From a virus (lineage: Duplodnaviria; Caudoviricetes), in the IMG/VR virus record IMGVR_UViG_2684623194_000001, positions 3,803 through 67,802 of that record: DNA of 64,000 nt; one strand, given 5' to 3'. Shown here piece by piece: positions 46,698 to 64,000 of the stretch (position 1 is the stretch's first letter; every line of letters begins with the position of its first letter). The position numbers and the translations under genes are program-made. The notes below the pieces were generated by a model. The model ran no database searches, was not told where the DNA came from, and was given only the letters and a program-made list of their open reading frames with translations.

Positions 46698-46917
46698 ACC
46701 GCCTGAAATTGTTATATTTCAAAGACTTACGGGTTCGGCGATTTGGCCATGTGTACCAGTCACATGGCCTGTACGCATATTCCAATCGATAGAGCCAAAT
46801 CTGACATCATCGGTGTTGACCCGCTGGGTCAAGCGCGACTTTTCCCCAGCCCAACCGCAGTATTTCAAAACAGCCGAAATTTTCGTGAACGCCTTTCTGC
46901 TCTAAGGCGCAAAAATC

Positions 46918-46986
46918 TTATCCACATGTTTATCCACAGGTTATCCACAGGCTTTCAACGAATTTGAGCGTTGGGCCTGTGGATAC
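46918..46986. promoter_or_regulatory. DnaA-box cluster
   Basis: Perfect TTATCCACA at 46918, 46930 and 46941; inverted one-mismatch box TGTGGATAC at 46978. Confidence 0.8.
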
Positions 46987-47225
46987 TGCGCTCAGCGCAT
47001 TTCCGTCGCTGTTTTCAGTGTGCTAAATCGGAAGGGTCGATAGGGTGGGTAGCCGGCAAGCTCACTCCCACCCCACAATCGACTTTCAAACGGACCCCTT
47101 CCAAAAGGGTCACGGGCGCACCTAGCCCTTCCACAAGGCTGGCTCTGCCAGGGCGGTACGGTCTCCACAACCGTGCCGCTCTTTCCGATTCCGTATCAGG
47201 GAAATCGGGTTTCCGAAAGGTGGAA

Positions 47226-47651
47226 TCACCTGACGTGGTCCAAGCCCTCTATGAGTTCGTCAAGCGTGTAGCTGGCGAGTTCATTTAGCTCTTCATTAGA
47301 GAGGGAAGCCGCGACCTTAACCTCAGTATCGATAGTCAAATTCCGCTCAGGGCGCCGCGCACTGGCGAGAACGCTCGCGAGCGACAGGGCGGCAGCGGCC
47401 GGGACTATCTGAGGCGACGGCATCATGCTGGCGAGCGTTGTGCGGCGGGCCTCGCGCTCTGCATGATGCATGTCGTCTAGGTCGCGCTGCACACTCTCCG
47501 GCCATAGGTCGAGATACTGGCCGAACCAGACTTTCACGTCCGACACATCGAGGGCCGAACGCTCGTTGATGACGCGCGCGAGCGTTACGAACGCTTGTGC
47601 GATGGTGTTGATTTCCTGATCTGGAAGATACTTCGACGGCTCGGAATACAA
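47226..47651 (-). CDS. Hypothetical protein overlapping the 3' end of the Rep-like ORF
   Basis: 141 aa protein-like composition; GGAG upstream of a TTG start. Confidence 0.55.
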   Translation of the reverse strand: MYSEPSKYLPDQEINTIAQAFVTLARVINERSALDVSDVKVWFGQYLDLWPESVQRDLDDMHHAEREARRTTLASMMPSPQIVPAAAALSLASVLASARRPERNLTIDTEVKVAASLSNEELNELASYTLDELIEGLDHVR

Positions 47652-49149
47652 GTTCGAACGCTCCGGGGATGGTTGCCGGAGTGTTATGCTTTATTCGAAA
47701 AGGCTCTGCAATAGTTAAACCCGCCGAAGTCGAAATATTATCTTCTGGTTCAATCAACGCTGACTTATCTTCTACTGCAAGCTCAGCCTTTACCTTCTCT
47801 ACTTTGCGCCACTCTTCGAAAAATGCCTTCGCGCCATCCCGTAGCGCTCGCGTCCCTGTAATGAGACGGCCGGGGACGACCGACCTTGTGTGAGAAAGCG
47901 TCTTCTGCCCGTAGCTGCGAAGCCAGAAGTCGTCAGGGCGTCGGAAGCGTGAGAAGTCAACTTGGCGTTCACCGCGTCGTTTCGGCGTCCAGTCTTTACC
48001 GCCGGCAGCAACGAGGGCTTCGGCAACAATGGGCGCCTCTTTGCGCTTGAAGACGAGTTCGCCGTGAACGTGAGGCCGGTCAACCTTGCTGGTCTTCGCT
48101 TCCACCACGAAAACGAAATCGCGAGGCTCGCCGGGAAGACGCTTTCGGAGTTCAAGGGCGATGCGCGCGGCGACGTAGCAGGCGAACTTGCCGGAGTTGA
48201 TGGCTTTCGCGCGGATGCGGTCGGAGAACTCAAGAGAGAAGGCGTAAACCTCGCGCTCGGGATCGGCGACGAGCGCGCGATGATAGGCCAGGGCAACCCC
48301 GCGTTCGTCCAGGTCTCGCCAGCGGGGAAGAGAGCGCCGGGTGATCGCAACGAGCGAGTTCGGCGAGGCGTAGGTCTGGCCGTGTGTGAACGTGAGTGCC
48401 GGCGTCGGAAGGTCTACGTCTGCCAGTAGGTCGTTAGGCGGATCGGCCGGGAGTGGTGCGGGTGTGGAAGCGGAAGCGGACGCCTTCGTTGCGTTCACCG
48501 CTGCGAGGATGTTGCGAACCGACGAGGGTGACCGGGCGGGTGTCAGCGTGTGAGCCGGCGATGCTGGCGCTTCGATGACTGGTGAGGCGAGAGCGGCGTC
48601 TAGCTCTTCGAGGTCGAGGGTGTAGGGGTCAGGGGAGTAAGTACCCTTTAATACAGCCGGGGTGCTCGTCGCGGCATCAGCCGACATGTCGGAAGCGCCC
48701 GCAATACCCTGTGCGACAACGGTTCCGCATGAGGTCCACGCATCAGAATGAGCGATGCCAGAATTAATCGATTTGCCAACTTCGGCCGCGAACTCATCGA
48801 ACGCGGGATCGGCTGTGATCGCGTCCAGTTCATCGAAGAGTTCCGCTAACTCGTCGCGCGTAGGCTCGTCATCGCTTCTCTTTTCGTCGCCGAGAAGCTG
48901 GCGTCGGAGAAGATCGGCGATTTGTTGCGGACTTAATGCGGGAGTGGTCGGCGACGGGTCTTCGTCGTTTTCGTCAGCGGGAGCTACTAGGGCGTCCAAA
49001 TCAGACAACGCGGCCTCAAGGGCGGCATTCTGCAAATCATCTAGCTCAAGATCGTGTTCCGTGTCGGATGCTGCGATCCGAACGATACGAAAGCGGCTTT
49101 CAGTAGACGAAAGGGAAAACACAGGAGACTCGCGAATGGTGGTAGACAA
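47347..49149 (-). CDS. Putative HUH-type replication protein with long acidic N-terminus
   Basis: FVFVVE...RPHVHGEL (HUH) and SYGQK (YxxK); start codon uncertain. Confidence 0.55.
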   Translation of the reverse strand: MSTTIRESPVFSLSSTESRFRIVRIAASDTEHDLELDDLQNAALEAALSDLDALVAPADENDEDPSPTTPALSPQQIADLLRRQLLGDEKRSDDEPTRDELAELFDELDAITADPAFDEFAAEVGKSINSGIAHSDAWTSCGTVVAQGIAGASDMSADAATSTPAVLKGTYSPDPYTLDLEELDAALASPVIEAPASPAHTLTPARSPSSVRNILAAVNATKASASASTPAPLPADPPNDLLADVDLPTPALTFTHGQTYASPNSLVAITRRSLPRWRDLDERGVALAYHRALVADPEREVYAFSLEFSDRIRAKAINSGKFACYVAARIALELRKRLPGEPRDFVFVVEAKTSKVDRPHVHGELVFKRKEAPIVAEALVAAGGKDWTPKRRGERQVDFSRFRRPDDFWLRSYGQKTLSHTRSVVPGRLITGTRALRDGAKAFFEEWRKVEKVKAELAVEDKSALIEPEDNISTSAGLTIAEPFRIKHNTPATIPGAFELVFRAVEVSSRSGNQHHRTSVRNARARHQRAFGPRCVGRESLVRPVSRPMAGECAARPRRHASCRARGPPHNARQHDAVASDSPGRCRPVARERSRQCAAP

Positions 49150-49182
49150 AAGAAAACCGGCGCGACCTTTCAGCCGCGCCGG
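49146..49182 (-). terminator. Terminator-like hairpin abutting the Rep-like ORF start
   Basis: CCGGCGCG-gctgaaaggt-CGCGCCGG followed by TTTTCTTTT on the minus strand. Confidence 0.6.
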
Positions 49183-49349
49183 GCACCATTCGTAGGAGTT
49201 GCGCCATGCCGTAGCGCTTTTCAGAACGACTATAGAATCTCACATCTCACGCTTGAGGCACAAGCTTTGCTTTGTTGTCGTTTGCATTTTGTTTGCAGCG
49301 GAGCGCACACAGGGCAAGTGAAACCGCAACGTAAGTGCAACGGCTCGAT

Positions 49350-51836
49350 TCATCTTCCGCCCCGCATGAGACCGCCCGGCCGCATCGCTGTTCGAAGCTC
49401 TTGGGCAACCGTTGCCCGAATTTGAGCGTCTACGGCTTGGGCGATGGCCTTTCCCTGCTTCTCGTCAGCTTCGCGGCCCTGCGATCCGCCCTCGACGTTC
49501 ACCGTGATTGCCGGCGCTAGGGTGATGTTGGACGTCGAAGAGCCACCCATGTTGCCGATGCGGGGCATGGGTGGTGCTGACAACGTGACGGGAATCGATC
49601 GCCCGTCAGGGAGCGGAACGGCTGCTTCCGGCCCAGCTTCGCCGAAGATCGCAGCGCTACGCGAAACACCTCCCTTAGCGAACTGAGGCAGCGGTTGCGG
49701 GCGCCCGTTCGCAGCAATGCCGCCGTCTGCAAAGCCGAAGAGCTTCCCCAGGATGCCGGCGCCCTGCCCGCCGCCGAAAAGGCCAGCCATCGGCCCCTTC
49801 CCAAAAAGTGCGGCTTCGATCGCCGCTTCTGCCAACATAGAAAGCATCCGCTGCAACGCCTCTTCGGCCGTGGCGCTTCCGGTGATGATGGACGAGAAGA
49901 ACCCGGAGACGCCGCTTGCAAGGAAGTCTTGCGCGGCCTTGAGTTCTTCCTGCTTGTGCGCGGCCTTTTCAGCGGCGTTCTCGACTTCCGCCATGCCGGC
50001 CGCAAGCTGGCTTAGCTGCGCGCGCTGTTCGGGCGAAAGCGCGATGCCGCGCGCACTGGCCTGGTTCAATAGGTCTTGTTCGATCCGAAGGCGGCTCGCA
50101 GCGCTGGCCGTCATGCCATAGGTCTGAATCTCGACATTGCTGTTCGCGATCATCTCGACGGCGCCGTTGATGATCTCCCGGTAGCTCGTCGCGAGTTCCT
50201 TGTTCTTGTCGATCTTCGTTTGAACGCCTTCGTCGCGCCCCGGCAAGGTCTGCGTCGTGGCGCCCATGGCCGTGCTGATCGCGCCATCGGGAACGCGGCG
50301 AAGTCCCTCCCATTCATTGCGCAAGCCGCCGAGGTCGTTCCCACGGCGCCGGAGAAGCTGTTGCGCCATGCGGTCCTGCATTCCAGCGTCGAAGAACTCT
50401 TCGCCGGTTAGTCCCATGTCGCCCATGAGGCCGCGCATGGTCTTCGAAACGATCTGGTAGCGCCCGACGGCTGACGAGTTGAACTTGTTATCAGGGTGCG
50501 CCAGCATCTTCTTTTGAAGCGCCAGAACCTCGTTCAATGTCATCTGAGTGAGGTTCACGTCGCCGCCCGTGAACTTCCCGAAAGCCAGGGTCTCGTTATA
50601 GCCCCTGCCCTTGTCGGTGCCTTCGGCGTACCCGATGAGGTCGAGCATCCCTTTCTTAGCAATAGTGCGGGCTTCCGCATCGTTGAAACGGCTAAGCGCG
50701 GCCATGCTCGCGGTCTCGGCTTGGCGCGCGGAAGTCGCGGGCGGGGTGATGCCACCAAGCTTATTCGCTGCGGCATCAGCCGCGGTGCCAAGCCGGTTGA
50801 TCCCGTTCGCTGCGGTGTCGCCACGCGCGGCGAGCGCCTTGTCGATACGCTCGATTTCAGCGTTCGACGCTTCGACCTGTTTACGGAGCGGCGTTAGAAG
50901 CATTTCAGGCAGATAGCTTCCATCGATCCGCCGTTGGGCGTCGTCGCGAGACCTTACCGCGAGCGAACGCGAAGCGAGAAGCGTCTGAGACTGCTGGTCC
51001 TGATATTCCTTGAATCGGTCGAGAAAGATGCCGAGGGCGTCGGTCGCCTCGATAATTGCGCCCTTGACCCCTGTCCCGATGCGCTTGGACAATAGGTCGA
51101 ACTTTCGATCAACCTCGTCGGCCTTATCGATGAAAGCGTCGTCCATAACGAGGCCGAAAGAATTCGCTTCGGCGATCATGGTTCGAATGCCGGTCGCACC
51201 GTGGCGCAGGAGCTCGACAAACTGCTCGCCGCCCGTTCCACCGAAAAGCTCGTCAGCAACCCGGATTTGAGCCGCCTTGTTAAGTTTCTGCATTCGGGAG
51301 ACGATCTCAACGAGAAGCGCCGAAGGGTCTTTCAGCGCCTCTTTGAGGGTCGTAGCGTCATAGCCGATGCGTCGGAAGGCTTCTGCGGCTGAGCCAGCAC
51401 CTGTTACGGCGAACTCGTCGGCGCGAAGGGAAAGCTCCTTCATGCCGTCAACGAGCGCGTCCATAGGAATGCGCGTTTGTGTGGCGACGTGCTGAAGTTC
51501 CTGAAACGCTTTAGTCGAGAGGCCGGCGCGACGAGCCTCATTGCCGATGTTGGCAATGCTCGTCACAACTTCTCGGTACTGAGAGACAAGCTGACCAACG
51601 CCGCCGATAGCCAAGGCGCCGGCAAGCCCCTTCCCGATCGTGCTGAGCGATTGGTTGATGCGAGAGGCCGAAGACGACATGCGATCTTCCATAGCCTTCG
51701 CAGAGCGGTCGGCCGACCGCTGCATGTTCTGGAACTGGCGAGCGACGAGCTTGTCCGCCCGGTCCATCTGCTTTTGCAGACGATCCATCTTCGCTTCGAT
51801 TTGAACGGATAGGTCGAACTCGGGCGCGCGCGCCAT
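49350..51836 (-). CDS. Tape measure protein with internal lambda-type lysozyme domain
   Basis: Helical N-terminus; LIGYAEGT...GYN...SSAVGRYQIV...QD..A...EWEGL; FADGG/GEAGPEA and RPGG C-terminus. Confidence 0.85.
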   Translation of the reverse strand: MARAPEFDLSVQIEAKMDRLQKQMDRADKLVARQFQNMQRSADRSAKAMEDRMSSSASRINQSLSTIGKGLAGALAIGGVGQLVSQYREVVTSIANIGNEARRAGLSTKAFQELQHVATQTRIPMDALVDGMKELSLRADEFAVTGAGSAAEAFRRIGYDATTLKEALKDPSALLVEIVSRMQKLNKAAQIRVADELFGGTGGEQFVELLRHGATGIRTMIAEANSFGLVMDDAFIDKADEVDRKFDLLSKRIGTGVKGAIIEATDALGIFLDRFKEYQDQQSQTLLASRSLAVRSRDDAQRRIDGSYLPEMLLTPLRKQVEASNAEIERIDKALAARGDTAANGINRLGTAADAAANKLGGITPPATSARQAETASMAALSRFNDAEARTIAKKGMLDLIGYAEGTDKGRGYNETLAFGKFTGGDVNLTQMTLNEVLALQKKMLAHPDNKFNSSAVGRYQIVSKTMRGLMGDMGLTGEEFFDAGMQDRMAQQLLRRRGNDLGGLRNEWEGLRRVPDGAISTAMGATTQTLPGRDEGVQTKIDKNKELATSYREIINGAVEMIANSNVEIQTYGMTASAASRLRIEQDLLNQASARGIALSPEQRAQLSQLAAGMAEVENAAEKAAHKQEELKAAQDFLASGVSGFFSSIITGSATAEEALQRMLSMLAEAAIEAALFGKGPMAGLFGGGQGAGILGKLFGFADGGIAANGRPQPLPQFAKGGVSRSAAIFGEAGPEAAVPLPDGRSIPVTLSAPPMPRIGNMGGSSTSNITLAPAITVNVEGGSQGREADEKQGKAIAQAVDAQIRATVAQELRTAMRPGGLMRGGR

Positions 51837-51849
51837 TCGTCAGGATTCC

Positions 51850-53466
51850 TTATGCAAATTCGGCCGCCGCGTCATAGTCGGGATCGGCCATAGGATTGGG
51901 TTTGGGTCGGTTGAACGCGGCACGGGAGACGGCCATCCACGCGGCGGAGGCACCATCGATGCGGGTACGCGACTTGCTCTTGTGCATCGTGCGAAGGCCG
52001 GAAGGTCCCTCATAGATGGAGACGTTCTCGACGTTCCATCGAAGGATTGGGTGGCCACCATGCCGAAGCTTCAGGCCAACAATTGCGCGTTCCAGAACGG
52101 CAACGCCTGCGGCTTGCGTCCTGTTATCAAGCGGCAATGCGTGTGCTGCGATCCCAAGCCCCTGCAAGCCAAGTGCGATCGGAGTGGCATACGCCCGGTC
52201 ATAAACGATGTCGGTCACATAGAACCGATCGTGCAGACGGGCGATGTGTTCGACCACGTAGCTATAATCGATCGCGCCGCCAGGGGTCGGAGTGATGTAG
52301 CCGGCTTCGGCCCAGGCAACATACGGCACGCGGTCAACGTCGCTTTTCTTCGGAAGCTCATCCTCCGGACAGAAGAAATGAGGAAGAACGATGAAGCCAT
52401 CCGGGTCTTCGGGATCGCGCCACGCCGCGACGACGGCCGTAAGATCGGTGGAAACGGATGCGTCAACGGCGATGTAGCAATCTTCGTCGCGAAGGCGCTC
52501 GAAAACGTCTTCGCCGAGCGGCGCGGCACCCTTGTCATAGGTTGCCGTGTCCACGAACGGCGAAAGGCTTTGGTCCTGCCAGATATTGAGGTTGAGTTGC
52601 TGAAAAGAAGTTCGCTCGCTCGGGCGGTTCGCGATCTCGCGGGCGTACTGACGCAGGCCGGCAAGATCGGGATACCCACATGCGAGGCCGGGATTCACCC
52701 GGTGCCAAATCGCTTCGTCAGTCCAGTCGCAGTCCTTGGGCGCCTCGAAGAGGATTGGTAGGGTCGCGGGGTCATCTATCTCGCCGCGCGCAACGGCACG
52801 GGCGTATTGGTATTGCTCCCACGCAATTGAGTTCTGCCCGCGCCCTGCGGTCGTGGTGATGACGTTGAGCGAGCCCGGCGTCTTGATAAGGCCGGTCTTG
52901 AGAGCTTCCCAGAGGTCGCGCTTCGGCCACGCATGAATTTCATCCATGAGCGTGAACGTCGGCGTTCTGCCGTGTTGGGTCTTCGCGTCGGCGCTAATAG
53001 CCTCAACGATCGAACCGGATCGAAGATCGCGGAAGCGGTTCCGATAGTCGGCAATGTCGGTGATGGCGCCAAGGCGACGATCGGCGCGGATCATTTCGAC
53101 AGCTTCCTCAAACGCAATGCGCGCCTGTTTCTGATCTGCCGCCGCGCAAACGATCTGTCCGCGCGCCGTCTTCTCCGGGCCGATGGAATGGAGGAGCGTC
53201 AGCGCCGCGCCGAGCGTCGTCTTCCGGTTGCCGCGCGGGATCATCGCGAAAACGGTTTTCACGATACGCGTCTTGTCAGGATGGCGCGGCCCATAGATGC
53301 GGCGGACGATTCGCTCCACCCAAGGGTCAAGCTGGAAGCGTCGGCCCGGTTGGGCCGATTTGGGGTGTCGAAGTTCACGGAGGAAGCGGACGGCGCGCTC
53401 CCCATATCCAAACGGATCGGGGATCGGCGAACCGTCATCAATCCAAGAAGGATAGGTCGTCGTCAT
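51850..53466 (-). CDS. terL: Terminase large subunit (HK97-type)
   Basis: IPRGNRKTT, LMDEIH, ITTAG, NP.L, VDAS..DLTA, RIDG. Confidence 0.93.
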   Translation of the reverse strand: MTTTYPSWIDDGSPIPDPFGYGERAVRFLRELRHPKSAQPGRRFQLDPWVERIVRRIYGPRHPDKTRIVKTVFAMIPRGNRKTTLGAALTLLHSIGPEKTARGQIVCAAADQKQARIAFEEAVEMIRADRRLGAITDIADYRNRFRDLRSGSIVEAISADAKTQHGRTPTFTLMDEIHAWPKRDLWEALKTGLIKTPGSLNVITTTAGRGQNSIAWEQYQYARAVARGEIDDPATLPILFEAPKDCDWTDEAIWHRVNPGLACGYPDLAGLRQYAREIANRPSERTSFQQLNLNIWQDQSLSPFVDTATYDKGAAPLGEDVFERLRDEDCYIAVDASVSTDLTAVVAAWRDPEDPDGFIVLPHFFCPEDELPKKSDVDRVPYVAWAEAGYITPTPGGAIDYSYVVEHIARLHDRFYVTDIVYDRAYATPIALGLQGLGIAAHALPLDNRTQAAGVAVLERAIVGLKLRHGGHPILRWNVENVSIYEGPSGLRTMHKSKSRTRIDGASAAWMAVSRAAFNRPKPNPMADPDYDAAAEFA

Positions 53467-57170: not shown

Positions 57171-57668
57171 TTATGCGATTGCCGAAGTCGCGGGAACCTC
57201 GATAGGCTCGCCGGTCAGTGACGCCTTGAAACGCTGCATCAGCATTTCGTTCGGGCCGCTCACTACGTACTTCCCCGACAGGATAACGCCGAGGCAGTAG
57301 ACGACAGTGGGTGTACCGCCTCCAGGCGGTACGTCATCGAAGACAACCTTGATGGCTTGGGTTTTGCCGCCTTTCAGAGCATTACGGGCGATCGTCTGGC
57401 CGGGATCGAAGACGTTGCGCAGAACTTCAAGCTCAAGGGCGCCGGCATCGCTGACGCCTGAACGCTTGATGCGCCGGCCACGACCGAAGGTCTCCTTCGT
57501 GATTTCCTCGCGCTCGTCGCCAAACTCGCCCATGTCGGTCACGTCGCCGATCTCGGTCCAAGTCAGCGCTTCGAATTCGGCTTTGGTATCGGCCGACGAC
57601 TCGCCGTGAATGTAGACCTTCGTAAGCGTCGTGGAGGTGACGTTCGAAACAGTGGCTTGAGTTGTCAT
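57171..57668 (-). CDS. Major tail tube protein
   Basis: WTEIGDVTDMGEFGD...K.SG..DAG...D.GQ. Confidence 0.8.
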   Translation of the reverse strand: MTTQATVSNVTSTTLTKVYIHGESSADTKAEFEALTWTEIGDVTDMGEFGDEREEITKETFGRGRRIKRSGVSDAGALELEVLRNVFDPGQTIARNALKGGKTQAIKVVFDDVPPGGGTPTVVYCLGVILSGKYVVSGPNEMLMQRFKASLTGEPIEVPATSAIA

Positions 57669-58833: not shown

Positions 58834-58844
58834 TTGGTCTGTCC

Positions 58845-59366
58845 TTACTGATTTCGGATTACCGTCGCGGCGTTGTAAAGAGCCCCGACGAGCGCGACGG
58901 TGCTGCCGGAAGCTTTGGCGGTGTGAATTTGCGCCCCAGGGTGAGCCGGGACCGGCGTCACGCTGATTTCGTGAAGGTCCAGGCGCTGAATCGTGCGGCC
59001 GGCCCGAACGCTCTTCGTCGCGGCGCGGTGCATCCCCTTGGCGCCAGAGAACCCGATTGATAGGCCGGTAATGGCGCCAGCTTGGATAAGCGCGCGCATC
59101 TCGCGAGCGTCTGCGACATCATCAACGAGAAGCCGGCCCTTCACGACGAGCCCGGCGTTGGACTCTTCGATTGATGTCCAAACGCCGATTGGGCGCTTTG
59201 GGTCATGGTAGGCTAGCATCGGGATTGGGACGGAAGCGCCAGCGAAGGCGCCCTTCTCGATCATGTCACCGACGCGATCAGGCGTCCCGAACGGCCACGC
59301 AATGCCGGTGATCTCGCCGGCATCATCAACCGAAAGGGCGGCTTTGGTTTCGAGACGGTTCATCAT
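58845..59366 (-). CDS. HK97-family prohead protease
   Basis: DRVGD.I.KGAF, HD...PIG.W, GLSIGF, EISV..VPA. Confidence 0.92.
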   Translation of the reverse strand: MMNRLETKAALSVDDAGEITGIAWPFGTPDRVGDMIEKGAFAGASVPIPMLAYHDPKRPIGVWTSIEESNAGLVVKGRLLVDDVADAREMRALIQAGAITGLSIGFSGAKGMHRAATKSVRAGRTIQRLDLHEISVTPVPAHPGAQIHTAKASGSTVALVGALYNAATVIRNQ

Positions 59367-60511
59367 GCGACGATGGTCTCGATTGCGGCGAGCGCGGTGC
59401 CGAACTCGTCAAAGGTCGCAAGCGTGAACGAGTAAGCGGCGTTGCGGCGCGCGATCTCAGCGCGAACGCTATTCATGAACTCCACCCGTTCGACCTGCAT
59501 GGGGTGAGTGACGCCGGAGTCTTGCCGTCCCCAATGGAGCCAATCGTTGCTAGTGCCGCTGGTGAAGTGCTTCCGCATCATGACGGGCTTTCCATCCGCG
59601 CTGGTGAACGTCGCGACCATAGAAGGCGCGATGACGCGCTCGTTCTCGCCTGTCAGGACGACCCGGAGATTAGCGTTAAGCGCCCTTCCCCCGTTCAACA
59701 CGCCATAGACGCGCCACCAGCCGAGACCGGGTTCATGAAATCCGTCGAAATAGCCGGTCGAAGCGTCAGCTTCCTTGAATCCACCGAACTGGTGCTGGTG
59801 CCAATTCGGGGTGCCGGTCGCCGGATCGATTGTCGAGCGCTCGACAAGAAAGCCGATGGCGCCAACAGTGCCAGTGATTGCGAGCTTCACTTTGCCCGCG
59901 AAGGGCTTCGCAACGGTCTGAAAGCCGACTCCCGAACCCTTGTAGGGAAGCGCGTCTTCGCTCAGCGAGACGAGTTCGGTCTCGCCATGGTCGGGCCTGT
60001 TGGTTGGAAGGCAGACGAAACGAGCATCAATCGCAGACGCGAACCGCTCAACGTCCAGGCTATTATCTGCCAAGATTCTCATGCCGACTTTCTCAACAAG
60101 CAGCGCTACACGGCCGCCGGTCTTCTCGATTGCGTAGGGAAGCGACTCGATGAGCAAAGCTCCATCGCGGCCGGTCAGAAGCGCGCCGTCTCTGCCGGTG
60201 AGGAAGCGAACGTCCTGCCGGGTGAGGGTTACGCGCCACCAGCCGGCGGGGCGCCGGTCAAACTGGTAAACCGCACTTTCGCCGCTGATCGTGCGCCCTT
60301 TCGGTTCGATTTCCGTCCACGGGAAGCCGTCCTCGTCAGAGCCGAAAGGCGCATATTCGAAGAGCAAGCCCATCGTGCCAGAAGACAAAAGTGTCATGTC
60401 GTCAGGGGCCGAAATGCGGATCGAAACCAAGCCAGAAAGGAAGGTTGGTTCGCTCGGCTCAAGAGGGCTGATAAGGTCGAACTCAGCGAAGGACGCGAGG
60501 TAATCGCTCAT
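59363..60511 (-). CDS. Hypothetical protein with two beta-rich modules and an LTGRDGAL tandem repeat
   Basis: GWWRV occurs twice; FLTGRDGALLTGRDGALLIE linker; coupled on both sides. Confidence 0.65.
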   Translation of the reverse strand: MSDYLASFAEFDLISPLEPSEPTFLSGLVSIRISAPDDMTLLSSGTMGLLFEYAPFGSDEDGFPWTEIEPKGRTISGESAVYQFDRRPAGWWRVTLTRQDVRFLTGRDGALLTGRDGALLIESLPYAIEKTGGRVALLVEKVGMRILADNSLDVERFASAIDARFVCLPTNRPDHGETELVSLSEDALPYKGSGVGFQTVAKPFAGKVKLAITGTVGAIGFLVERSTIDPATGTPNWHQHQFGGFKEADASTGYFDGFHEPGLGWWRVYGVLNGGRALNANLRVVLTGENERVIAPSMVATFTSADGKPVMMRKHFTSGTSNDWLHWGRQDSGVTHPMQVERVEFMNSVRAEIARRNAAYSFTLATFDEFGTALAAIETIVA

Positions 60512-60840
60512 TGCGCTTCCTTCTCGCCTTCTGCGTCGGTCCCGAAATAGGCCGCGCCGACGATCGACAGCGTGAGAAGGCGAGCCTCGTTAACCGGGCG
60601 CGGATAGACGTATGCCGACAGGAGCGCAGCGGCTTCCTGCGGATCGGTGCCACCGCCGATCAAGGCTAGGCGAATGGTCTGGTGAAGATCGGCTAGGCTG
60701 TAGTCATCGGAAAGGATGCGCCGCGCCAGGGCGCCGAAGCCGGAGCCGGTCACGCGCTCAAGCTCGAATGCTTGCGCGTTCGGGAGCGCGAAATCCCGCT
60801 CTTCGTCACCGAAGAACTGACGATGCGTTGTGCCGGTCAT
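60508..60840 (-). CDS. GTA-gp10-like tail assembly chaperone family protein
   Basis: FGD.E..F.L...ELE...TIRLALIGGG..P.EA. Confidence 0.75.
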   Translation of the reverse strand: MTGTTHRQFFGDEERDFALPNAQAFELERVTGSGFGALARRILSDDYSLADLHQTIRLALIGGGTDPQEAAALLSAYVYPRPVNEARLLTLSIVGAAYFGTDAEGEKEAQ

Positions 60841-62162
60841 TCGGCTTCCTTCGCCGGTGCCGTTCCGGTCGTCGTGTTGGGATTGAGAAAGGCTTGGCCG
60901 CCTTCGTATGGGGCGCGGTTCTCCATCGCCCGAACCTCGTTGGGGTTCAGGATGCGCGAGGCGATGGCCTTGCTGTAGGCTTCGAAGCGAGCGGTGGTGT
61001 CAGCCCGGAGAAGGTCGTCGGTGATGAACTCGACGGAGAGGTCTTCGTCGGTGCCAGGGTCGAGAAGGACACGCTCGTAAGCGTCCTGCCATGCTTCGAT
61101 CCAAGGTAGGAGCGTCAGTTCGCGGAACTGGCGAGCCATTTCTTCCGAGTTGCCCCAGGTCGCCCGGCCGAGTTCGAAAAGAAGATGCGGCGGGATGCCG
61201 AAGGCGCGGGCGATCTCGTCAACGGCGAAGCGGCGAAGCTCAAGGAACTGCGCATCGACAGACGAGAAAGAGAAAGGCGTGACGGTCGCGCCATCGAAAA
61301 AGATCGCGGCCTTGCCGGAGTTGTCGACGCCTTCCAGGCCAGCGCGGGTGCGGGCGACGACATTCTTGCGGGTAGTCGAGCCGTCCCGGTCAGGGCCAGA
61401 CGGCGCAGTCGCTTCGGGAGGATATACGATGCCGAATGACGGACGAGCGCCGTTCTGGAAGAGCTTGGCGCCATGCTTCTCCATCGCGAGGGCGAGCGCG
61501 ATTGCTTCCCGCGCCAGCTTGATCGGAGCGAGACCCTTGAGCCCATCGTGATCGAATAGCAGGGCCGGAAGGTGAAGAACGTCCCGCGCCTCATAGGTGC
61601 GGACGCCATTGTTCGTCATCAGCCGATAGACAGGCTCGCCGAAGTCGTTTGCCTCGACGGTCATTGCGGCCGGATCAACGCGAAGGAACTCCACGACGGA
61701 GCCTTTCACGCGGTTCGCAATGGCGAAGCCGTTGCCATGCAAGAGCGCGTCCTGCGTCAACTGACGGCGAAGAGCGCCAGCCTGAACGAGCGGCGAGGCG
61801 CGACGATGAATAAGACGATAGGCCGGGTGATCGTCTGCGACTTCCTTGCCGCCATCGGTTCGCCGATAGAGCTTCGCCGGCATCGTGCCGAGCGCAGAAG
61901 AAATTCGCGTTACAGCGAGGTTCACTGCTGGAACCGTCAAAGAACTCTTAGCGGTTACGAACACGCCGCCATGAGTTCCAGGCGCAGAGATTAGAGCTTC
62001 CCAGCCATCATCTTGCGATACAGGCGCGCTCTTCTCTTCGATCCCGAAGAGCTTTCCGAACGACGCTAGGAAGGACAACTTTGACAACGAGAGACAACCG
62101 TGTTCATTACTTAACACTATTGTCTCATAGGCTGATTCGCGGCGGCAAGAAAAAAGCGACAT
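60837..62162 (-). CDS. HK97-family portal protein (true start probably ~80 nt inside this ORF)
   Basis: LLHGNG, DVLH, GLAPI, DAQFLE.R, IARAFGIPP, NEVRAMEN. Confidence 0.93.
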   Translation of the reverse strand: MSLFSCRRESAYETIVLSNEHGCLSLSKLSFLASFGKLFGIEEKSAPVSQDDGWEALISAPGTHGGVFVTAKSSLTVPAVNLAVTRISSALGTMPAKLYRRTDGGKEVADDHPAYRLIHRRASPLVQAGALRRQLTQDALLHGNGFAIANRVKGSVVEFLRVDPAAMTVEANDFGEPVYRLMTNNGVRTYEARDVLHLPALLFDHDGLKGLAPIKLAREAIALALAMEKHGAKLFQNGARPSFGIVYPPEATAPSGPDRDGSTTRKNVVARTRAGLEGVDNSGKAAIFFDGATVTPFSFSSVDAQFLELRRFAVDEIARAFGIPPHLLFELGRATWGNSEEMARQFRELTLLPWIEAWQDAYERVLLDPGTDEDLSVEFITDDLLRADTTARFEAYSKAIASRILNPNEVRAMENRAPYEGGQAFLNPNTTTGTAPAKEAE

Positions 62163-62188
62163 AGGAAGTGAATCCCACGTCGCTTTTT
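62151..62188. terminator. Bidirectional terminator-like hairpin between integrase and portal
   Basis: AAAAAGCGAC...GTCGCTTTTT inverted repeat. Confidence 0.65.
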
Positions 62189-62209
62189 ATTGTGATCGAA
62201 TGTGAGCCG

Positions 62210-64000
62210 CTACGGCATTAGGTGCGAGAGGTCGAGGCCGGGATAAGCGATCTTCTCGATAAGCTCGACACGCTGGGTAAGAGTACCCTGAGACAGCACC
62301 CCATAGATGTTGGTTGTAGAAGCTTTGGTATGGCCGAGGATATAACCGAAATCCTCGTTCATGTGACCCACCATGCGGAAGGCGTCAGCTACACCATGTC
62401 GAAATGAATAGAGCGAAAGGCCCCTACCCTTCTTCAAACCAATCCGTTCGAGGTAGCGTCCAAACTCGCGCGAGAAGTCGGCTATCATCTGGCCGCGAGC
62501 GTTGCGCTTCGCTTCGGGGAAGAGCTTGGCCTCGCCAGCTTCCTTCATGCGAACGTGATGGTCGAGGAAGCCCAGGCGCACAAGTTCCGAGTGGATCGGG
62601 ACAACGCGCATGGATCCGCGCGTTTTCACGCTCTTCTCGTCGTCGCCTAAGATGGTGATGTGCATGAAGGGAATGCCGTCCTGCGTTCTGACGTCGGCAA
62701 CGGATAGTTGGGCGATCTCACCGGGTCGTGCGCCGCTGTAGAGCATGATAATCGGCACCCAAAACCGATGGTCGCGGATTGCGACGTTCCCCGGCTTCGC
62801 GACGTTGCGCCATTCGTCAGAGCTTAGGCATCCGGTGAAGAGGGGTGACGAGAAGAGCGTCACAAGCTGGTCAGGCTTGAAGGGCGTCGTGGTGATTTTC
62901 TTCTCTTTCGCAAGGCTCATGCCTTGCGTCGGATTGATTTGCAGAACGCCGCGCTTCGTCAGCCAGTCGCAGAATGCTCCCAGGCTCGACAGATAGCGAT
63001 TGATCGTCCGGGGCGTAAGCGTCGGCTTTCCGATGCGCTCGTTTTCCTTCACGATCTCCGGGAGCTTCATCCCAGCGAATGCCTTGGTTTCGGTCGCCTT
63101 CACAGGATAGAGTTCCAGAAGGTCCATCCACGCGGCGACGGCCGGCTTGTCGATCCGATGCGCAGGAAAGCCCGTGCCGTGAACCTCAATAAAGCTTCGA
63201 ATGTCGCGCCGGGCCTGATTCAGAGTGTCGGGAGCCACGCCGTTGGGATTCTGACGCGCGTACTTCTCGAAAAGCTCCATGATCGTTTCGCCCGGCTTTG
63301 CGGTCTCGTGAGCCGTGCCGGTCGGCGGGGTGACAACGGGGTCTTTTGACGTGCCGGAATAGTCGCCCGCGTCCCGTTCTAACGAACGCTCAAGATATTG
63401 AATTTCAGCCCGCATGAAACGGCGAGCGAGGTCCGTATAGTCAGACGAACCGGGCTTAGTTAGAAGACGGTTTTTCCGAATGAACTCGTCTACCTCGTCG
63501 GCGATCAAGGCGAACTCGCCTTCTGTCAGGTGTCGCCGGAGAGTGTCCAGTTTCACGCGGCGAGCATGTGCGTCCCATTCGCGTCCGCCCTTCGTGACAA
63601 GGAAGTCAGTGCTTGCACTCAGAACGGCGAGACCATCGCCAAGGTCAAATCCCTCGCGTTGGATCGTCGCGATGGTATCTTCCCTCGCCTTCTCGATCTC
63701 GTCGGGCGTCGGCATATGCTGCCGTGCGATCTCGTCGCGTTCCAGCGCGCCGGAATAGTGATCCCAGCCGGCGCGCTCGCGATCTTCTGCCGAGACGTTT
63801 TGCCGGGACCGGAGGTCGTCAAACTCCCGGTTCCACTCTTCGATAACGGGCCACATGCGTCGCTTCGCTTCGTCCCGATCCTTCGTTCGGAGCGACTTCT
63901 TGCGGAACTCAGCCCCGACGATCTCGCGAAGGTCGAGCGGAACCCGAAGGCGAGCGTAGTAGCTCGCGCCGATCCGAATGAGGTAGGAAACTTGCGACAT
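62210..64000 (-). CDS. int: Tyrosine integrase with DUF6538-like N-terminal domain
   Basis: YYARLRVP.DL...KSLRTKD; YSGARPGEI, KT..S.R.VPIH, YSFRH, LGH...TT..YG. Confidence 0.92.
   Translation of the reverse strand: MSQVSYLIRIGASYYARLRVPLDLREIVGAEFRKKSLRTKDRDEAKRRMWPVIEEWNREFDDLRSRQNVSAEDRERAGWDHYSGALERDEIARQHMPTPDEIEKAREDTIATIQREGFDLGDGLAVLSASTDFLVTKGGREWDAHARRVKLDTLRRHLTEGEFALIADEVDEFIRKNRLLTKPGSSDYTDLARRFMRAEIQYLERSLERDAGDYSGTSKDPVVTPPTGTAHETAKPGETIMELFEKYARQNPNGVAPDTLNQARRDIRSFIEVHGTGFPAHRIDKPAVAAWMDLLELYPVKATETKAFAGMKLPEIVKENERIGKPTLTPRTINRYLSSLGAFCDWLTKRGVLQINPTQGMSLAKEKKITTTPFKPDQLVTLFSSPLFTGCLSSDEWRNVAKPGNVAIRDHRFWVPIIMLYSGARPGEIAQLSVADVRTQDGIPFMHITILGDDEKSVKTRGSMRVVPIHSELVRLGFLDHHVRMKEAGEAKLFPEAKRNARGQMIADFSREFGRYLERIGLKKGRGLSLYSFRHGVADAFRMVGHMNEDFGYILGHTKASTTNIYGVLSQGTLTQRVELIEKIAYPGLDLSHLMP

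What the first reader, a model, noticed from the sequence alone, without database searches (positions are those of the whole stretch)
46698..64000. Compact satellite-like element encoding head, neck, tail tube and tape measure but no tail tip, fibre or lysis genes
Seen: a single minus-strand run int - portal - chaperone - unknown - protease - capsid - tail tube - chaperone - HNH - gpM-like - unknown - gp6 - gp10 - DUF3168 - closure - terS - terL - tape measure/lysozyme - Rep-like - DnaA boxes - tRNA-Gln. ORFs look intact and are mostly translationally coupled, so it does not look decayed. The order differs from the canonical siphophage terS-terL-portal-protease-capsid-neck-tail. No hub/central fibre, receptor-binding, holin/endolysin, repressor or AlpA gene is recognisable. 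Established: cf-PICIs make capsids but take whole tails from helpers; RcGTA clusters keep canonical order, include baseplate genes and lack an integrase. Inference: this may be a distinct satellite class that builds a small head plus tail shaft and borrows only the tail tip/adhesin and lysis from a helper phage or host GTA.
Basis: partly seen in the sequence, partly recalled or inferred. Interest (0 to 1): 0.82.

Follow-up and report, generated by a model that had tools for sequence, protein, structure and literature searches.

The report
Phage satellite encoding head and tail shaft
This is an intact 17.4-kb mobile element in a tRNA-Gln gene that encodes a virus head, DNA-packaging enzymes, neck and tail shaft but no tail tip or lysis genes; it belongs to a widespread, apparently undescribed family that most likely completes its particles with parts from a helper phage.

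Summary

- **Boundaries.** A 17-bp repeat of the tRNA-Gln 3' end lies 117 bp beyond the integrase start. A congener has the empty site. The unit spans 46698 to window-equivalent 64133 (17,436 bp), with nothing beyond the integrase.
- **Family.** The interleaved head/tail order is collinear in all 13 relatives read in full. Three units are att-bounded, at 15.1-17.4 kb.
- **Frequency.** About 21 of 400 sampled genomes of the order show this architecture around TerL.
- **Selection.** Genes shared with the closest relative have dN/dS of 0.05-0.27.
- **Missing parts.** No hub, fibre or lysis family turned up in this element or among 108 unassigned ORFs of 12 relatives.
- **Helper dependence.** Seven of the 13 relatives lack a tube gene, and most lack the gpM-like distal tail protein. 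These cannot be autonomous phages.
- **Kinship.** The nearest TerL relatives are tail-less cf-PICI-like islands, mixed with tail-bearing ones on the tree.

Best reading (0.6): a helper-dependent satellite that takes only the tail tip and lysis from a helper. The helper is unidentified and nothing has been tested experimentally. Novelty: a new variant of a known kind.

The parts
46623..46697 (+). tRNA-Gln(ttg). Its last 17 nt (46681-46697) form attL, the left copy of the att core.
   Evidence: ARAGORN. The 17-nt direct repeat is also found at window-equivalent 64117-64133.
46698..47225 (.). Non-coding end of the element. It holds three tandem perfect DnaA boxes (46918-46949) and one inverted copy (46976-46985). 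An arm-like GTGTACCAG copy lies near 46750.
47226..47651 (-). Alternative-frame ORF of 141 aa overlapping the 3' end of the Rep-like ORF. Only its C-terminal half is conserved in the closest relative.
   Evidence: (dN/dS 0.50). No Pfam or PHROG hit.
47347..49149 (-). Rep-like gene, a likely HUH rolling-circle initiator. The core at residues ~250-445 is 86-94% identical to the closest relative. The last ~150 residues are poorly conserved and Arg-rich.
   Evidence: invariant HxH, near-invariant Tyr; pLDDT 89; weak matches to parvovirus Rep nuclease domains.
49157..49182 (-). Terminator-like hairpin (11-bp stem, 9 G-C pairs, T run) between the tape measure gene and the Rep-like gene.
   Evidence: Consensus scan only; the total terminator count is no higher than in shuffles.
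49350..51836 (-). Tail tape measure protein, 828 aa, with an internal lysozyme-like domain (~residues 380-515).
   Evidence: phrog_10574 at 1.7e-130, phrog_90 and phrog_430. PhageMin_Tail is below its cut-off. dN/dS 0.08.
51850..53466 (-). Large terminase (TerL).
   Evidence: TerL_ATPase and TerL_nuclease.
53438..53854 (-). Small terminase (Terminase_4).
   Evidence: E 2.9e-26.
53836..54165 (-). Head completion (stopper-type) protein.
   Evidence: Phage_HCP at 1.6e-15.
54153..54626 (-). Tail completion protein, gp17 family (formerly DUF3168).
   Evidence: PF11367 at 2.5e-15.
54614..55000 (-). HK97 gp10-like neck or tail component.
   Evidence: PF04883 at 3.4e-9.
54988..55269 (-). gp6-like head-tail connector (adaptor).
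   Evidence: PF05135 at 4.6e-11.
55368..55889 (-). Unknown 173-aa protein, probably DNA-binding. Relatives carry multi-HTH proteins in the same slot.
   Evidence: Weak phrog_3377 match at residues 113-160. Relatives.
55868..56224 (-). gpM-like distal tail protein, 118 aa from the internal ATG. Its start overlaps the HNH stop as ATGA.
   Evidence: PF05939, 70.7 bits against a cut-off of 39. It is the only copy in the genome. dN/dS 0.13.
56221..56577 (-). HNH endonuclease, a packaging accessory.
   Evidence: PF01844 at 9e-8.
56577..57167 (-). Tail assembly chaperone of the TAC_6 type.
   Evidence: PF09550 at 7e-6 and phrog_7493 at 8e-15.
57171..57668 (-). Tail tube protein.
   Evidence: phrog_158 at 1.2e-17. 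Phage_tail_3 is below its cut-off.
57682..58833 (-). HK97-type major capsid protein.
   Evidence: PF05065 at 1.3e-82.
58845..59366 (-). Prohead serine protease (S78).
   Evidence: PF04586 at 1.2e-23.
59363..60511 (-). Orphan 382-aa protein, mostly beta strand. It is accessory and absent from every relative read.
   Evidence: No Pfam or PHROG hit. Not found in 40 related genomes. The slot is empty or short in relatives. AF2 pLDDT is 39.
60508..60840 (-). Tail assembly chaperone of the TAC_11 / GTA-gp10 type, placed between portal and protease.
   Evidence: PF11836 at 4e-16. It holds the same position in 13 of 13 relatives.
60837..62162 (-). Portal protein.
   Evidence: PF04860 at 7.7e-89.
62210..64000 (-). 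Tyrosine integrase, 596 aa (DUF6538 plus Phage_integrase). Its ATG is the last codon of the window.
64000..64000 (.). Marker for attR, which lies just outside the window at window-equivalent 64117-64133 (L002 2117-2133). Two arm-like repeats lie between it and the int start.

Best explanation
The element is a site-specifically integrated, self-replicating phage satellite from a family related to capsid-forming PICIs.

**Shown by sequence**
- It is a 17,436-bp unit bounded by a 17-bp repeat of the tRNA-Gln 3' end.
- It carries an integrase, a Rep-like gene next to four DnaA boxes, and one tightly coupled minus-strand gene run.
- That run encodes the head (portal, protease, capsid), HNH-dependent packaging (HNH, TerS, TerL) and the neck (gp6-like, head completion, gp10-like, gp17-like).
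- It also encodes the tail shaft: tube, two chaperones, a tape measure with a lysozyme domain, and a gpM-like distal tail protein.
- There is no hub, central fibre, receptor-binding protein or lysis gene.

**Inferred mechanism**
1. After induction by a helper, or by infection with one, the element excises.
2. It replicates by rolling circle.
3. It packages unit-length genomes into capsids it makes itself.
4. It assembles a tail whose length is set by its own tape measure, starting on a tail-tip initiator made by the helper. In lambda terms this is the J/I/L/K complex, onto which H with G/GT, then M, then V normally add.
5. It joins that tail to its own neck and escapes through the helper's lysis system.

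If so, the only structural contact with the helper is between the tape measure / distal tail protein and the hub. Host range would be inherited from the helper's tip.
For: **Boundaries and mobility**
- The att repeat and the empty site in a congener define the unit.
- Two relatives are also att-bounded. One is 15.1 kb at tRNA-Thr with a 25-bp repeat. The other is 16.3 kb at tRNA-Pro with a repeat of at least 30 bp.
- Family members sit at five different tRNA genes.
- In the genus, TerL relatives occur in 5 of 21 species genomes. Two are tail-bearing and three are tail-less.

**Conservation**
- 13 of 13 fully read relatives are collinear at roughly 30-70% protein identity.
- dN/dS is 0.05-0.27 for 10 genes shared with the closest relative, tail genes included.

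**Missing functions**
- None of the 20 ORFs of this element matches a tip or lysis family.
- None appears among the listed families for 108 unassigned ORFs of 12 relatives.
- The one 'tail fiber' PHROG hit is an 86-position family matching 80-88-aa ORFs.
- At 93% coding, little room is left for hidden genes.

**Members that cannot be autonomous**
- 7 of 13 relatives have no tube gene in the element but keep the tape measure, chaperones and neck genes.
- gpM is found in only 6 of 21 element-bearing genomes. It is always inside an element, in one of two positions.

**Kinship with known satellites**
- Some TerL relatives at 49-59% identity, as close as most tail-bearing family members, are int-alpA-AAA_25-portal-protease-capsid-HNH-gp6-terS-terL islands without tail genes.
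- These interleave with tail-bearing members on the TerL tree.
- The order matches the published proteobacterial cf-PICI order (passages read).

**Precedents and context**
- PLE satellites build chimeric tails using their own tape measure, chaperone and hub (PMC12987554, passages read).
- In cultured phages carrying a gpM homologue at up to 46% identity, the annotated order is TMP-M-L-K-I-J.

**Replication**
- The Rep core has an invariant HxH motif and a near-invariant Tyr across 61 aligned sequences.
- Its model has pLDDT 89, and the best fold matches are parvovirus Rep nuclease domains.
Against: - There are no experimental data. Excision, particles and transfer are all unseen.
- No sequencing run holds the element, so circular junctions could not be looked for.
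- No helper has been identified.
  - gpL (PF05100) was not found in this genome, or in 0 of 21 other element-bearing genomes.
  - The nearest cultured homologues of gpM, tube and tape measure belong to different rhizobiophage groups.
- No repressor, AlpA or anti-repressor target was recognised in this element, so the induction route is unknown.
- Three proteins remain without assigned function: the 382-aa orphan, the 173-aa protein and the 141-aa overlapping ORF. A novel tip or lysis protein among them is not excluded.
- Family scans of relatives' ORFs list only the 25 commonest families. The Pfam list had exactly 25 entries and the PHROG list showed 25 of 43, so rare single hits may be hidden.
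- The Rep fold matches are weak. None reaches E <= 0.001, TM is below 0.5, and ferredoxin-like PII proteins also match.
Confidence: 0.6

Rival explanations
1. Autonomous miniature temperate siphophage. The element makes complete infectious virions. Its tail tip, adsorption and lysis functions would be supplied by unrecognised proteins (the 382-aa orphan, the 173-aa protein, small ORFs) and by the tape measure's lysozyme domain.
For: - This copy has every recognisable virion part except the tip: head, neck, tube, chaperones, tape measure and distal tail protein.
- It has its own integrase, att sites and a Rep-like gene.
- Three ORFs are of unknown function. The 382-aa one is mostly beta strand, and its nearest atlas clusters are viral hypotheticals, as leads only at scores of 0.85-0.86.
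Against: - The 382-aa ORF is absent from all relatives read, so it cannot be the family's tip.
- No hub or central-fibre family was found. The structural literature on lambda-like siphophages describes these as conserved, essential tip components (PMC11945409, passages read).
- No holin or endolysin was found.
- 7 of 13 relatives lack even a tube gene.
- The 15.1-kb att-bounded relative has almost no unassigned coding space.
Confidence: 0.1
2. Satellite of the host's gene transfer agent. The missing baseplate, fibres and lysis come from the resident RcGTA-like cluster and its regulon rather than from a phage.
For: - The only hub or fibre genes found in this 99.99%-complete genome are in an RcGTA-like cluster at C1:3155405-3169325. 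It carries DUF2460, hub, NlpC/P60 and GTA_TIM/Phage-tail_3 genes.
- The element's two chaperones and its gp17-like protein belong to Pfam families shared with RcGTA g10, g10.1 and g8.
- GTA_TIM is present in 19 of 21 other element-bearing genomes.
Against: - GTA_TIM was not found in 2 of 21 element-bearing genomes, both 98-99% complete and each with a full element. In a third the gene is split.
- The base rate of GTA clusters in the order was not measured, so 19 of 21 says little.
- The element's distal tail protein is lambda gpM-type, not the GTA's DUF2460 type.
- The element's proteins have no tblastn match at E <= 1e-3 to the GTA tail genes.
- No full CtrA-type box (TTAA-N7-TTAA) occurs in the unit.
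Confidence: 0.1
3. Defective prophage lineage or domesticated particle-producing cluster. It would be a remnant that no longer moves as a unit. Either it is kept for a host function, or it has simply not yet decayed.
For: - It lacks tip and lysis genes.
- CheckV-style completeness for the IMG/VR relatives is only 14-42%.
- No regulatory switch was recognised.
Against: - ORFs are intact and coupled, and dN/dS is 0.05-0.27.
- The same gene set recurs at 30-70% identity at different tRNA sites, with intact att repeats.
- Distribution is patchy within the genus, and an empty site exists.
- This pattern fits an active mobile element. It does not fit vertical domestication or independent decay to the same end point.
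Confidence: 0.12
4. Primarily an anti-phage island. Its tail-shaft proteins would act as decoys that poison the tail assembly of infecting phages, and transfer would be secondary.
For: - Satellites commonly interfere with helper assembly.
- PLE-encoded tail parts coexist with a tail-assembly inhibitor.
- Accessory slots of relatives hold defence-like domains: Mrr_cat, DUF4145, FitA-like and DUF4238.
Against: - A full head, packaging and neck set under purifying selection is not needed for a decoy.
- Interference is compatible with the satellite reading rather than a rival to it.
Confidence: 0.05

Closest known systems
Capsid-forming PICIs (cf-PICIs; prototype EcCIEDL933; bioRxiv 10.1101/2022.09.08.507074, passages read; SatelliteFinder paper PMC10085698, passages read)
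   Same: - A small (~15 kb) integrase-bearing island.
- Its own HK97-type capsid, protease, portal, head-tail connector, HNH, TerS and TerL.
- Morphogenesis genes first, then hnh-terS-terL.
- No lysis genes.
- TerL relatives at 49-59% identity, as close as most tail-bearing members, include tail-less islands of exactly this type. These interleave with the family on the TerL tree.
   Different: - It carries a tape measure, two tail chaperones, gp17-like and gp10-like tail/neck proteins, a tube and a distal tail protein.
- Tail genes are an exclusion criterion in the cf-PICI definition, and 'forbidden components' in SatelliteFinder.
- It has no AlpA.
- It has an HUH Rep-like gene with DnaA boxes in place of a primase-replicase.
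PLEs of Vibrio cholerae, which build chimeric tails (PMC12987554, passages read)
   Same: A satellite that encodes its own tape measure and tail assembly chaperone, and completes tails with helper parts.
   Different: - PLEs lack capsid, portal and terminase genes and use ICP1's contractile tail parts.
- PLE11 supplies a hub but not the tube.
- This element supplies the tube and distal tail protein but no hub, and it makes its own head.
RcGTA-type gene transfer agents. The host's own cluster is at G000:C1:3155405-3169325.
   Same: - A ~15-kb alphaproteobacterial head-tail gene set.
- Shared Pfam families: capsid, gp17-like and TAC_11.
   Different: - The GTA cluster has the canonical order and baseplate/fibre genes (DUF2460, hub, NlpC/P60, GTA_TIM). 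No integrase was seen in the part read. Absence of att sites and of a rep gene is recalled general knowledge of GTAs, not tested here.
- The element has an interleaved order, no baseplate genes, an integrase, att repeats and a Rep-like gene. Its distribution is patchy.
EPIPs of Mycolicibacterium aichiense (PMC12822802, abstract read)
   Same: A small satellite reported to carry a tape measure gene.
   Different: By their abstract, EPIPs lack capsid and tail proteins. This element encodes both.
Lambda/T1-like siphophage tails, and the large Rhizobium siphophages RHEph10 and RHph_N1_10 (PMC11945409, passages read)
   Same: A gpM-type distal tail protein of about 118 aa, up to 46% identical to the Rhizobium phage proteins.
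   Different: Those phages follow TMP-M with L, K, I and J (hub, assembly proteins, central fibre). The element stops at M.

Membership tests
cf-PICI | Integrase-bearing island of about 10-15 kb with its own att site | tested here: met
   17.4 kb with a 17-bp att repeat and an empty site in a congener. This is slightly above the published size range.
cf-PICI | Own capsid, protease, portal, head-tail connector, HNH, TerS and TerL | tested here: met
   All seven were found by Pfam.
cf-PICI | Morphogenesis genes first, then hnh-terS-terL (the proteobacterial type) | tested here: inconclusive
   The backbone order is kept, but tail genes are interleaved at five places.
cf-PICI | Lacks tail genes | tested here: not met
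   Tube, tape measure, two chaperones, gp17-like, gp10-like and gpM-like genes are present.
cf-PICI | Lacks lysis genes | tested here: met
   No holin or endolysin family was found. The only lysozyme-like segment lies inside the tape measure.
cf-PICI | AlpA-type regulator and primase-replicase module next to int | tested here: not met
   No AlpA or primase family was found. An HUH Rep-like gene sits at the opposite end instead. A tail-less relative (L006) does have alpA and AAA_25.
cf-PICI | Induced and transferred by a helper phage whose tails it uses | not testable with these tools
   Needs an induction and transfer experiment.
RcGTA-type GTA | Canonical terL-portal-protease-capsid-neck-tube-TMP-baseplate order, including g12-g15 | tested here: not met
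   The order is interleaved, and no DUF2460, hub or GTA_TIM gene is in the unit. The host's real GTA cluster is elsewhere.
RcGTA-type GTA | No integrase, att or replication module; vertically inherited | tested here: not met
   Integrase, att repeats, a Rep-like gene, an empty site in a congener and varied tRNA targets.
Autonomous temperate siphophage | Tail tip (hub/Tal or gpL-gpJ) and a receptor-binding protein | tested here: not met
   None was found in the unit. PF05100 is absent from the genome, and PF13550 occurs only in the GTA.
Autonomous temperate siphophage | Lysis cassette and a lysogeny switch | tested here: not met
   No holin, endolysin or repressor family was found at E <= 0.01. 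Small unrecognised proteins cannot be excluded.
Phage satellite (general sense) | Lacks functions essential for its own particle release or infection, yet is maintained and mobile | tested here: met
   Tip and lysis genes are missing. Selection is purifying. Units are att-bounded at several tRNAs.
Phage satellite (general sense) | Dependence on a helper is demonstrated | not testable with these tools
   No helper was identified. No sequencing run holds the element.
HUH rolling-circle Rep (for the 'Rep-like' gene) | HUH metal-binding motif, a catalytic Tyr motif and the HUH nuclease fold | tested here: inconclusive
   - HxH is invariant and Tyr near-invariant in 61 aligned sequences.
- The best fold matches are parvovirus Rep nuclease domains, but at E of only about 7e-3 and TM below 0.5.
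- This protein has no Pfam hit.
- One relative's ORF matches PF23343 at 1.2e-6.

The most novel reading that the evidence does not exclude
The element is a satellite of a gene transfer agent rather than of a phage. It would make its own head, neck and tail shaft and package its own 17.4-kb genome. It would complete particles with the baseplate, fibres and lysis functions of the host's resident RcGTA-like cluster. That would turn a domesticated, non-self-transmitting particle system back into a vehicle for a selfish element. The only tail-tip genes found in this genome are those of the GTA. The reading is weakened, though not excluded for this strain, because GTA_TIM was not found in 2 of 21 other element-bearing genomes.
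Probability: 0.1. Interest if true: 0.95.

Novelty: new variant of a known kind. Interest (0 to 1): 0.72.

Why it matters
- **It extends what a satellite can encode.** Published double-stranded DNA phage satellites take whole tails (cf-PICIs) or replace a few tail parts (PLEs). This family would sit at the far end of that range. It would encode everything except the tail tip and lysis.
- **It suggests how satellites and phages interconvert.** Different members draw the line between self-made and stolen parts at different points along the tail. Some encode the head only. Others add neck, tape measure and chaperones; others add the tube; others add the distal tail protein.
- **It is common but overlooked.** About 5% of sampled genomes of the order carry it. 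SatelliteFinder would reject it by design, because tail genes are forbidden components there. Prophage tools score it as an incomplete prophage, at 14-42% completeness.
- **It makes a question testable.** One could ask whether a siphophage tail-tip initiator can be captured by a foreign tape measure, chaperone and tube set.

Tried and rejected
**The 382-aa orphan**
- It was not found in 40 related genomes.
- PDB phmmer gave only antibody light chains at E >= 0.07.
- Atlas leads scored below 0.9.
- The single-sequence AF2 model has pLDDT 39, so no fold search was run on it.

**The Rep-like protein**
- PDB phmmer found nothing.
- A word-based homology search found one protein, 80% identical, which its source names a hypothetical protein of Aureimonas sp. 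D3.
- A profile of 61 sequences found nothing in PDB sequences.

**False alarms and negative checks**
- A 'tail fiber protein' PHROG (phrog_12296) matched 2 of the 108 relatives' ORFs. It is an 86-position family, and the matches are 80-88-aa ORFs between chaperone and HNH or protease genes. I rejected it as evidence for a fibre.
- The 897-aa ORF after terL in the tail-less relative L006 is not a tape measure (hhalign probability 0.1%).
- The 405-aa ORF after gpM in G243 has no Pfam or PHROG hit, and host genes follow it.
- The conserved 150-200-aa post-TMP protein has no PHROG hit. It lies on either strand next to the Rep module, so I did not count it as structural.
- No full CtrA-type box (TTAA-N7-TTAA) occurs in the unit.

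**Signals no better than chance**
- Promoter-like sites numbered 4 against 3.9 in shuffles.
- Terminator-like sites numbered 18 against 19.8 in shuffles.

**Sequencing runs**
- No RNA holder is listed.
- No run holds more than 0.16 of the sampled words.
- Read laying was therefore not used, and excised circles could not be looked for.

**Limits on searches**
- The scan of genome contigs with TerL returned only 4 loci.
- Two searches of earlier findings returned nothing: one by place and one by the TerL sequence.
- The cap of search_protein_families was reached. Later family look-ups used the genome search.
- Supplementary files of the cf-PICI and SatelliteFinder papers, which list elements and models, could not be seen. 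They may include alphaproteobacterial elements.

Full report
**1.

ORF listing with Pfam and PHROG scans confirms one minus-strand run. Reading from 64000 down, the genes are:

| Gene | Coordinates | Note |
|---|---|---|
| Tyrosine integrase | 62210-64000 | |
| Portal | 60837-62162 | |
| Chaperone, TAC_11 / GTA-gp10 type | 60508-60840 | |
| Unknown, 382 aa | 59363-60511 | |
| S78 protease | 58845-59366 | |
| HK97-type capsid | 57682-58833 | |
| Tail tube | 57171-57668 | phrog_158 at 1e-17; Pfam below cut-off |
| Chaperone, TAC_6 type | 56577-57167 | |
| HNH | 56221-56577 | |
| gpM-like protein | 55868-56224 | Its ATG overlaps the HNH stop |
| Unknown, 173 aa | 55368-55889 | |
| gp6-like adaptor | 54988-55269 | |
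| HK97 gp10-like | 54614-55000 | |
| gp17-type tail completion protein | 54153-54626 | |
| Head completion protein | 53836-54165 | |
| TerS | 53438-53854 | |
| TerL | 51850-53466 | |
| Tape measure, 828 aa | 49350-51836 | Internal lysozyme-like segment |
| 'Rep-like' ORF, 600 aa | 47347-49149 | No family hit |

- Twelve of the 18 junctions overlap by 1-29 nt, and 93% of the unit is coding.
- tRNA-Gln(ttg) lies at 46623-46697.
- All three exact DnaA-box matches in the 64-kb window fall within 46918-46949, and an inverted copy lies at 46976-46985.
- No hub, fibre, receptor-binding, holin, endolysin, repressor or AlpA family scored at E <= 0.01.

**2. The unit is precisely bounded, and nothing lies beyond the integrase**

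- The window is G000:C1:2722916-2786915.
- The last 17 nt of tRNA-Gln (46681-46697) recur as a direct repeat at window-equivalent 64117-64133. That is 117 bp upstream of the integrase start.
- The gene to the right of the repeat is conserved in 18 of 21 congeneric genomes.
- I inspected nine of those loci.
  - G020 has tRNA-Pro(cgg), tRNA-Gln, then the flank gene about 25 bp later, then tRNA-Pro(ggg). This is the empty site.
  - G017 has the two tRNAs about 830 bp from the flank.
  - The other seven show no tRNA within 1.5 kb of the flank gene.
- The element is therefore a 17,436-bp insertion.
- Copies of a 9-nt repeat lie near both ends, one by attL and two between attR and int. They resemble integrase arm sites. 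That role is inferred.

**3. It is a member of a conserved family**

*Relatives found in IMG/VR scans*
- The scan with the tape measure gave L008, a 9.9-kb fragment 53-95% identical per protein and in the same order. The scan with the tube gave L010, which carries portal-TAC_11-protease-capsid-tube.
- Of 50 loci fetched with the capsid and TAC_11 queries, four (L017, L064, L065, L066) show the full interleaved order. Most of the rest show the canonical terL-portal-protease-capsid order or are fragments.

*Frequency in the order*
- In a sample of 400 genomes of the order, the tape measure matched 57 others at E <= 1e-10.
- Of the 29 loci fetched from that search, 11 have terL directly upstream of the tape measure.
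- TerL matched 28 of the sampled genomes at E <= 1e-80. Their TerL flanks classify as follows.

| TerL flank class | Genomes |
|---|---|
| Clear tail-bearing pattern (gp10/gp17/HCP-terS-terL-TMP, or TMP adjacency) | 18 |
| One such marker | 3 |
| No tail marker; most show HNH-(gp6)-terS-terL | 6 |
| That pattern plus a weak tape-measure-like hit | 1 |

*Relatives read in full*
- The thirteen are L071-L074, L115 and L117-L124.
- All 13 are collinear with the window's element.
- L116 and the short G050 and G285 contigs were dropped as truncated.

*Integration sites*
- Two relatives are att-bounded. L117 is 15.1 kb, with a 25-bp repeat of tRNA-Thr. L074 is 16.3 kb, with a repeat of at least 30 bp of tRNA-Pro(cgg).
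- Members lie next to tRNA-Gln, Pro, Thr, Ser or Pro/Arg genes.
- In three IMG/VR relatives the integrase lies downstream of the tape measure rather than upstream of the portal. On a circle this is the same order.

*Within the window's own genus*
- TerL relatives at 54-58% identity occur in 5 of 21 species genomes.
- Two are tail-bearing and three are tail-less.

**4. The genes are under selection**

I compared the element with L008, its closest relative.

| Gene | dN/dS |
|---|---|
| terS | 0.05 |
| terL, gp6, gp10 | 0.07 |
| Tape measure | 0.08 |
| gpM (dS saturated) | 0.13 |
| gp17-like | 0.21 |
| 173-aa protein | 0.23 |
| Head completion protein | 0.24 |
| Rep-like | 0.27 |
| Overlapping 141-aa ORF | 0.50 |

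**5. Tip and lysis genes are missing across the family**

- I collected 108 ORFs from 12 relatives that had no match to the element's proteins.
- Pfam found HTH, Arc and excisionase-type regulators, integrases, divergent gp6, gp17 and HCP, Bro-N, DUF4145, Mrr_cat, FitA-like and one REP_ORF2-G2P.
- PHROG found integrases, excisionases, anti-repressors and ParA-like ATPases.
- Both outputs list only the 25 commonest families. The Pfam list had exactly 25 entries, and the PHROG list showed 25 of 43. Rare single hits may therefore be hidden.
- The one 'tail fiber' PHROG is an 86-position family matching ORFs of 80-88 aa.
- In G243, gpM follows the tape measure. A 405-aa unknown comes next, and then host regulators and an ABC transporter.

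**6. The family is heterogeneous in a telling way**

- A tube homologue is present in this element and in L071-L074, L119 and L124.
- In L115, L117, L118 and L120-L123 the slot between capsid and TAC_6 is empty, or holds a 128-144-aa protein of another family. That family shows a weak Bbp16 match and phrog_5707.
- In those seven genomes, the phrog_158 tube family is either absent or lies outside the element.
- gpM (PF05939) was found in 6 of 21 element-bearing genomes. It is always inside an element, either after HNH or after the tape measure.
- Members without a tube cannot be autonomous phages, yet they keep the tape measure, both chaperones and the neck genes. I take this as the strongest in-silico argument that the family depends on a helper. 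It also suggests that members differ in how much of the tail they supply.

**7. Kinship with cf-PICI-like islands**

- Several TerL relatives at 49-59% identity, as close as most tail-bearing members, have no tail genes. L006 reads int-alpA-unknown-AAA_25-...-portal-protease-capsid-HNH-gp6-terS-terL.
- Its 897-aa ORF after terL is not a tape measure.
- I built a TerL tree of 37 rows with the quick IQ-TREE method and SH-aLRT support.
  - Rows left out were duplicate loci of genomes already represented, and the five loci fetched later.
  - Tail-bearing and tail-less rows interleave.
  - Starred branches force at least 4 changes of the 'tail' label and at least 2 of 'no tail'.
  - For example, L119 (tail) groups with L005 and L007 at 98% support.
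  - Labels for loci with only 1.5-kb flanks are provisional, and the tree is unrooted. The direction of change, gain or loss, is therefore open.
- The cf-PICI paper states that proteobacterial cf-PICIs place morphogenetic genes first, then hnh-terS-terL, and that cf-PICIs lack lytic and tail genes (passages read).
- SatelliteFinder treats tail and holin profiles as forbidden components for cf-PICI (passages read).
- The element therefore works like a cf-PICI in its head and packaging genes, but it fails a defining criterion of that family.

**8. The replication module**

- A strong hairpin with a T run (49182-49157) separates the tape measure from the Rep-like gene.
- Residues ~250-445 of the Rep-like protein are 86-94% identical to the L008 protein. 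The last ~150 residues are only about 24% identical.
- An exhaustive HMMER search with the core found 131 proteins at E <= 1e-3, 12 at E <= 1e-10 and 3 at E <= 1e-30.
- In an alignment of 61 sequences the two histidines of an HxH motif are invariant, and a tyrosine is conserved in at least 90%.
- The AF2 model has pLDDT 89.2 and pTM 0.82.
- Its best PDB matches are HUH nuclease and origin-binding domains: parvovirus B19 NS1 and AAV Rep, at probabilities of 0.91-0.98. None reaches E <= 0.001, TM stays below 0.5, and PII-like ferredoxin folds also match.
- Atlas leads and one relative's PF23343 hit point the same way.
- I read the gene as a rolling-circle initiator with moderate confidence.
- The role of the adjacent DnaA boxes is not established. 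They could act as an origin accessory or in regulation.

**9. Candidate helpers**

*In this genome*
- Outside the element, its 20 proteins match only a distant integrase and the capsid, protease and portal of an RcGTA-like cluster. That cluster has DUF2460, hub, NlpC/P60 and GTA_TIM genes.
- PF05939 occurs only in the element. PF05100 (gpL) was not found. PF13550 occurs only in the GTA.

*In the 21 other element-bearing genomes*
- gpL was found in 0 of 21.
- GTA_TIM was found in 19 of 21. It was not found in G386 or G310, both 98-99% complete.

*Among cultured phages*
- gpM matches 16 records. Fifteen are Rhizobium siphophages of 100-122 kb, at up to 46% identity.
- RHph_N1_10 is annotated TMP-M-L-K-I-J.
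- The tube matches other rhizobiophages at up to 36% identity.
- No phage covers 80% of the tape measure.
- The best TerL matches listed are about 32% identical.
- No single helper lineage emerges. If the tip is of the lambda type, the helper is not a resident prophage in these genomes.

**10. Proposed mechanism (inferred)**

- Lambda-like tips consist of a hexameric distal tail protein on a trimeric hub, a central fibre and an insertion protein (PMC11945409, passages read).
- From my own recall of the classical lambda pathway, J, I, L and K form an initiator. The tape measure with its chaperones adds to it, then M, then the tube.
- The element encodes exactly the later steps, plus the terminator and neck proteins, and none of the earlier ones.
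- I therefore propose that it captures a helper-made tip complex and builds the rest of the virion itself.
- Published precedent exists for satellite-encoded tape measure, chaperone and hub in chimeric tails of PLEs. Those authors state that no other satellite had been reported to encode a tape measure.
- A preprint reports a tape measure in EPIPs (abstract).

**11. Novelty**

- Five full-text searches returned no paper describing a satellite that encodes head, neck and tail shaft, or this alphaproteobacterial family. One search was too broad to be informative.
That is an unchecked AI note. I reached the same reading here from independent calls.
- I rate the finding as a new variant of a known kind, the phage satellites.

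**12. What remains open**

- The helper's identity.
- The induction signal.
- Capsid size.
- The packaging site.
- The function of the three unassigned ORFs.
- The direction of evolution between tail-less and tail-bearing members.
- Any experimental evidence of excision or particles. No sequencing run holds the element.

Noticed in passing
G000:C1:3155405-3169325 (locus L067 5405-19325), outside the window: The host carries a complete-looking RcGTA-like cluster in canonical order. It includes capsid, gp17-like, tube, TAC_11, DUF2460, hub, NlpC/P60 and a 1292-aa GTA_TIM/Phage-tail_3 protein.
   Followed up: partly
window 46373-46697 and L002 4223-4299: A tRNA-Pro(cgg) / tRNA-Gln(ttg) pair and a nearby tRNA-Pro(ggg) act as integration targets for the family. 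G065 (L122) has a member at the same tRNA-Gln with int next to the tRNA. L074 uses tRNA-Pro(cgg). G017 has about 830 bp of unexamined sequence between tRNA-Gln and the flank gene.
   Followed up: partly
window 59363-60511: An orphan 382-aa gene sits between the TAC_11 chaperone and the protease. It carries a short tandem peptide repeat and is predicted to be mostly beta strand. It is absent from all relatives, which suggests a cargo or moron slot.
   Followed up: partly
window 47226-47651 versus 47347-49149: The Rep-like ORF and a 141-aa ORF overlap by about 300 nt in two frames. The same overlap occurs in the closest relative. The Rep-like C-terminus is poorly conserved, while the C-terminal half of the other frame is conserved. 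This may be a frameshift or a separate small gene.
   Followed up: partly
Relatives L071-L074, L117-L124 (accessory slots): Unassigned ORFs include defence-like or addiction-like domains: Mrr_cat, DUF4145, DUF4238, FitA-like antitoxin, Bro-N/anti-repressor and ParA-like. The family may carry anti-phage cargo, as other satellites do.
   Followed up: no
L087 (G388:C15:527289-531395): A tape measure homologue (40% identity over residues 396-790) is followed directly by a gpM homologue (35%) in the canonical phage order. This could be a prophage of the kind that might serve as a helper.
   Followed up: no
G219:C1:940100-946057 and 3124401-3144400: One genome carries two family members. One lacks tube and gpM. 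The other has both, although the tube match contains an in-frame TGA.
   Followed up: no
window 20001-28000: AT skew is strongly negative (down to -0.22) over about 8 kb, unlike the rest of the window.
   Followed up: no
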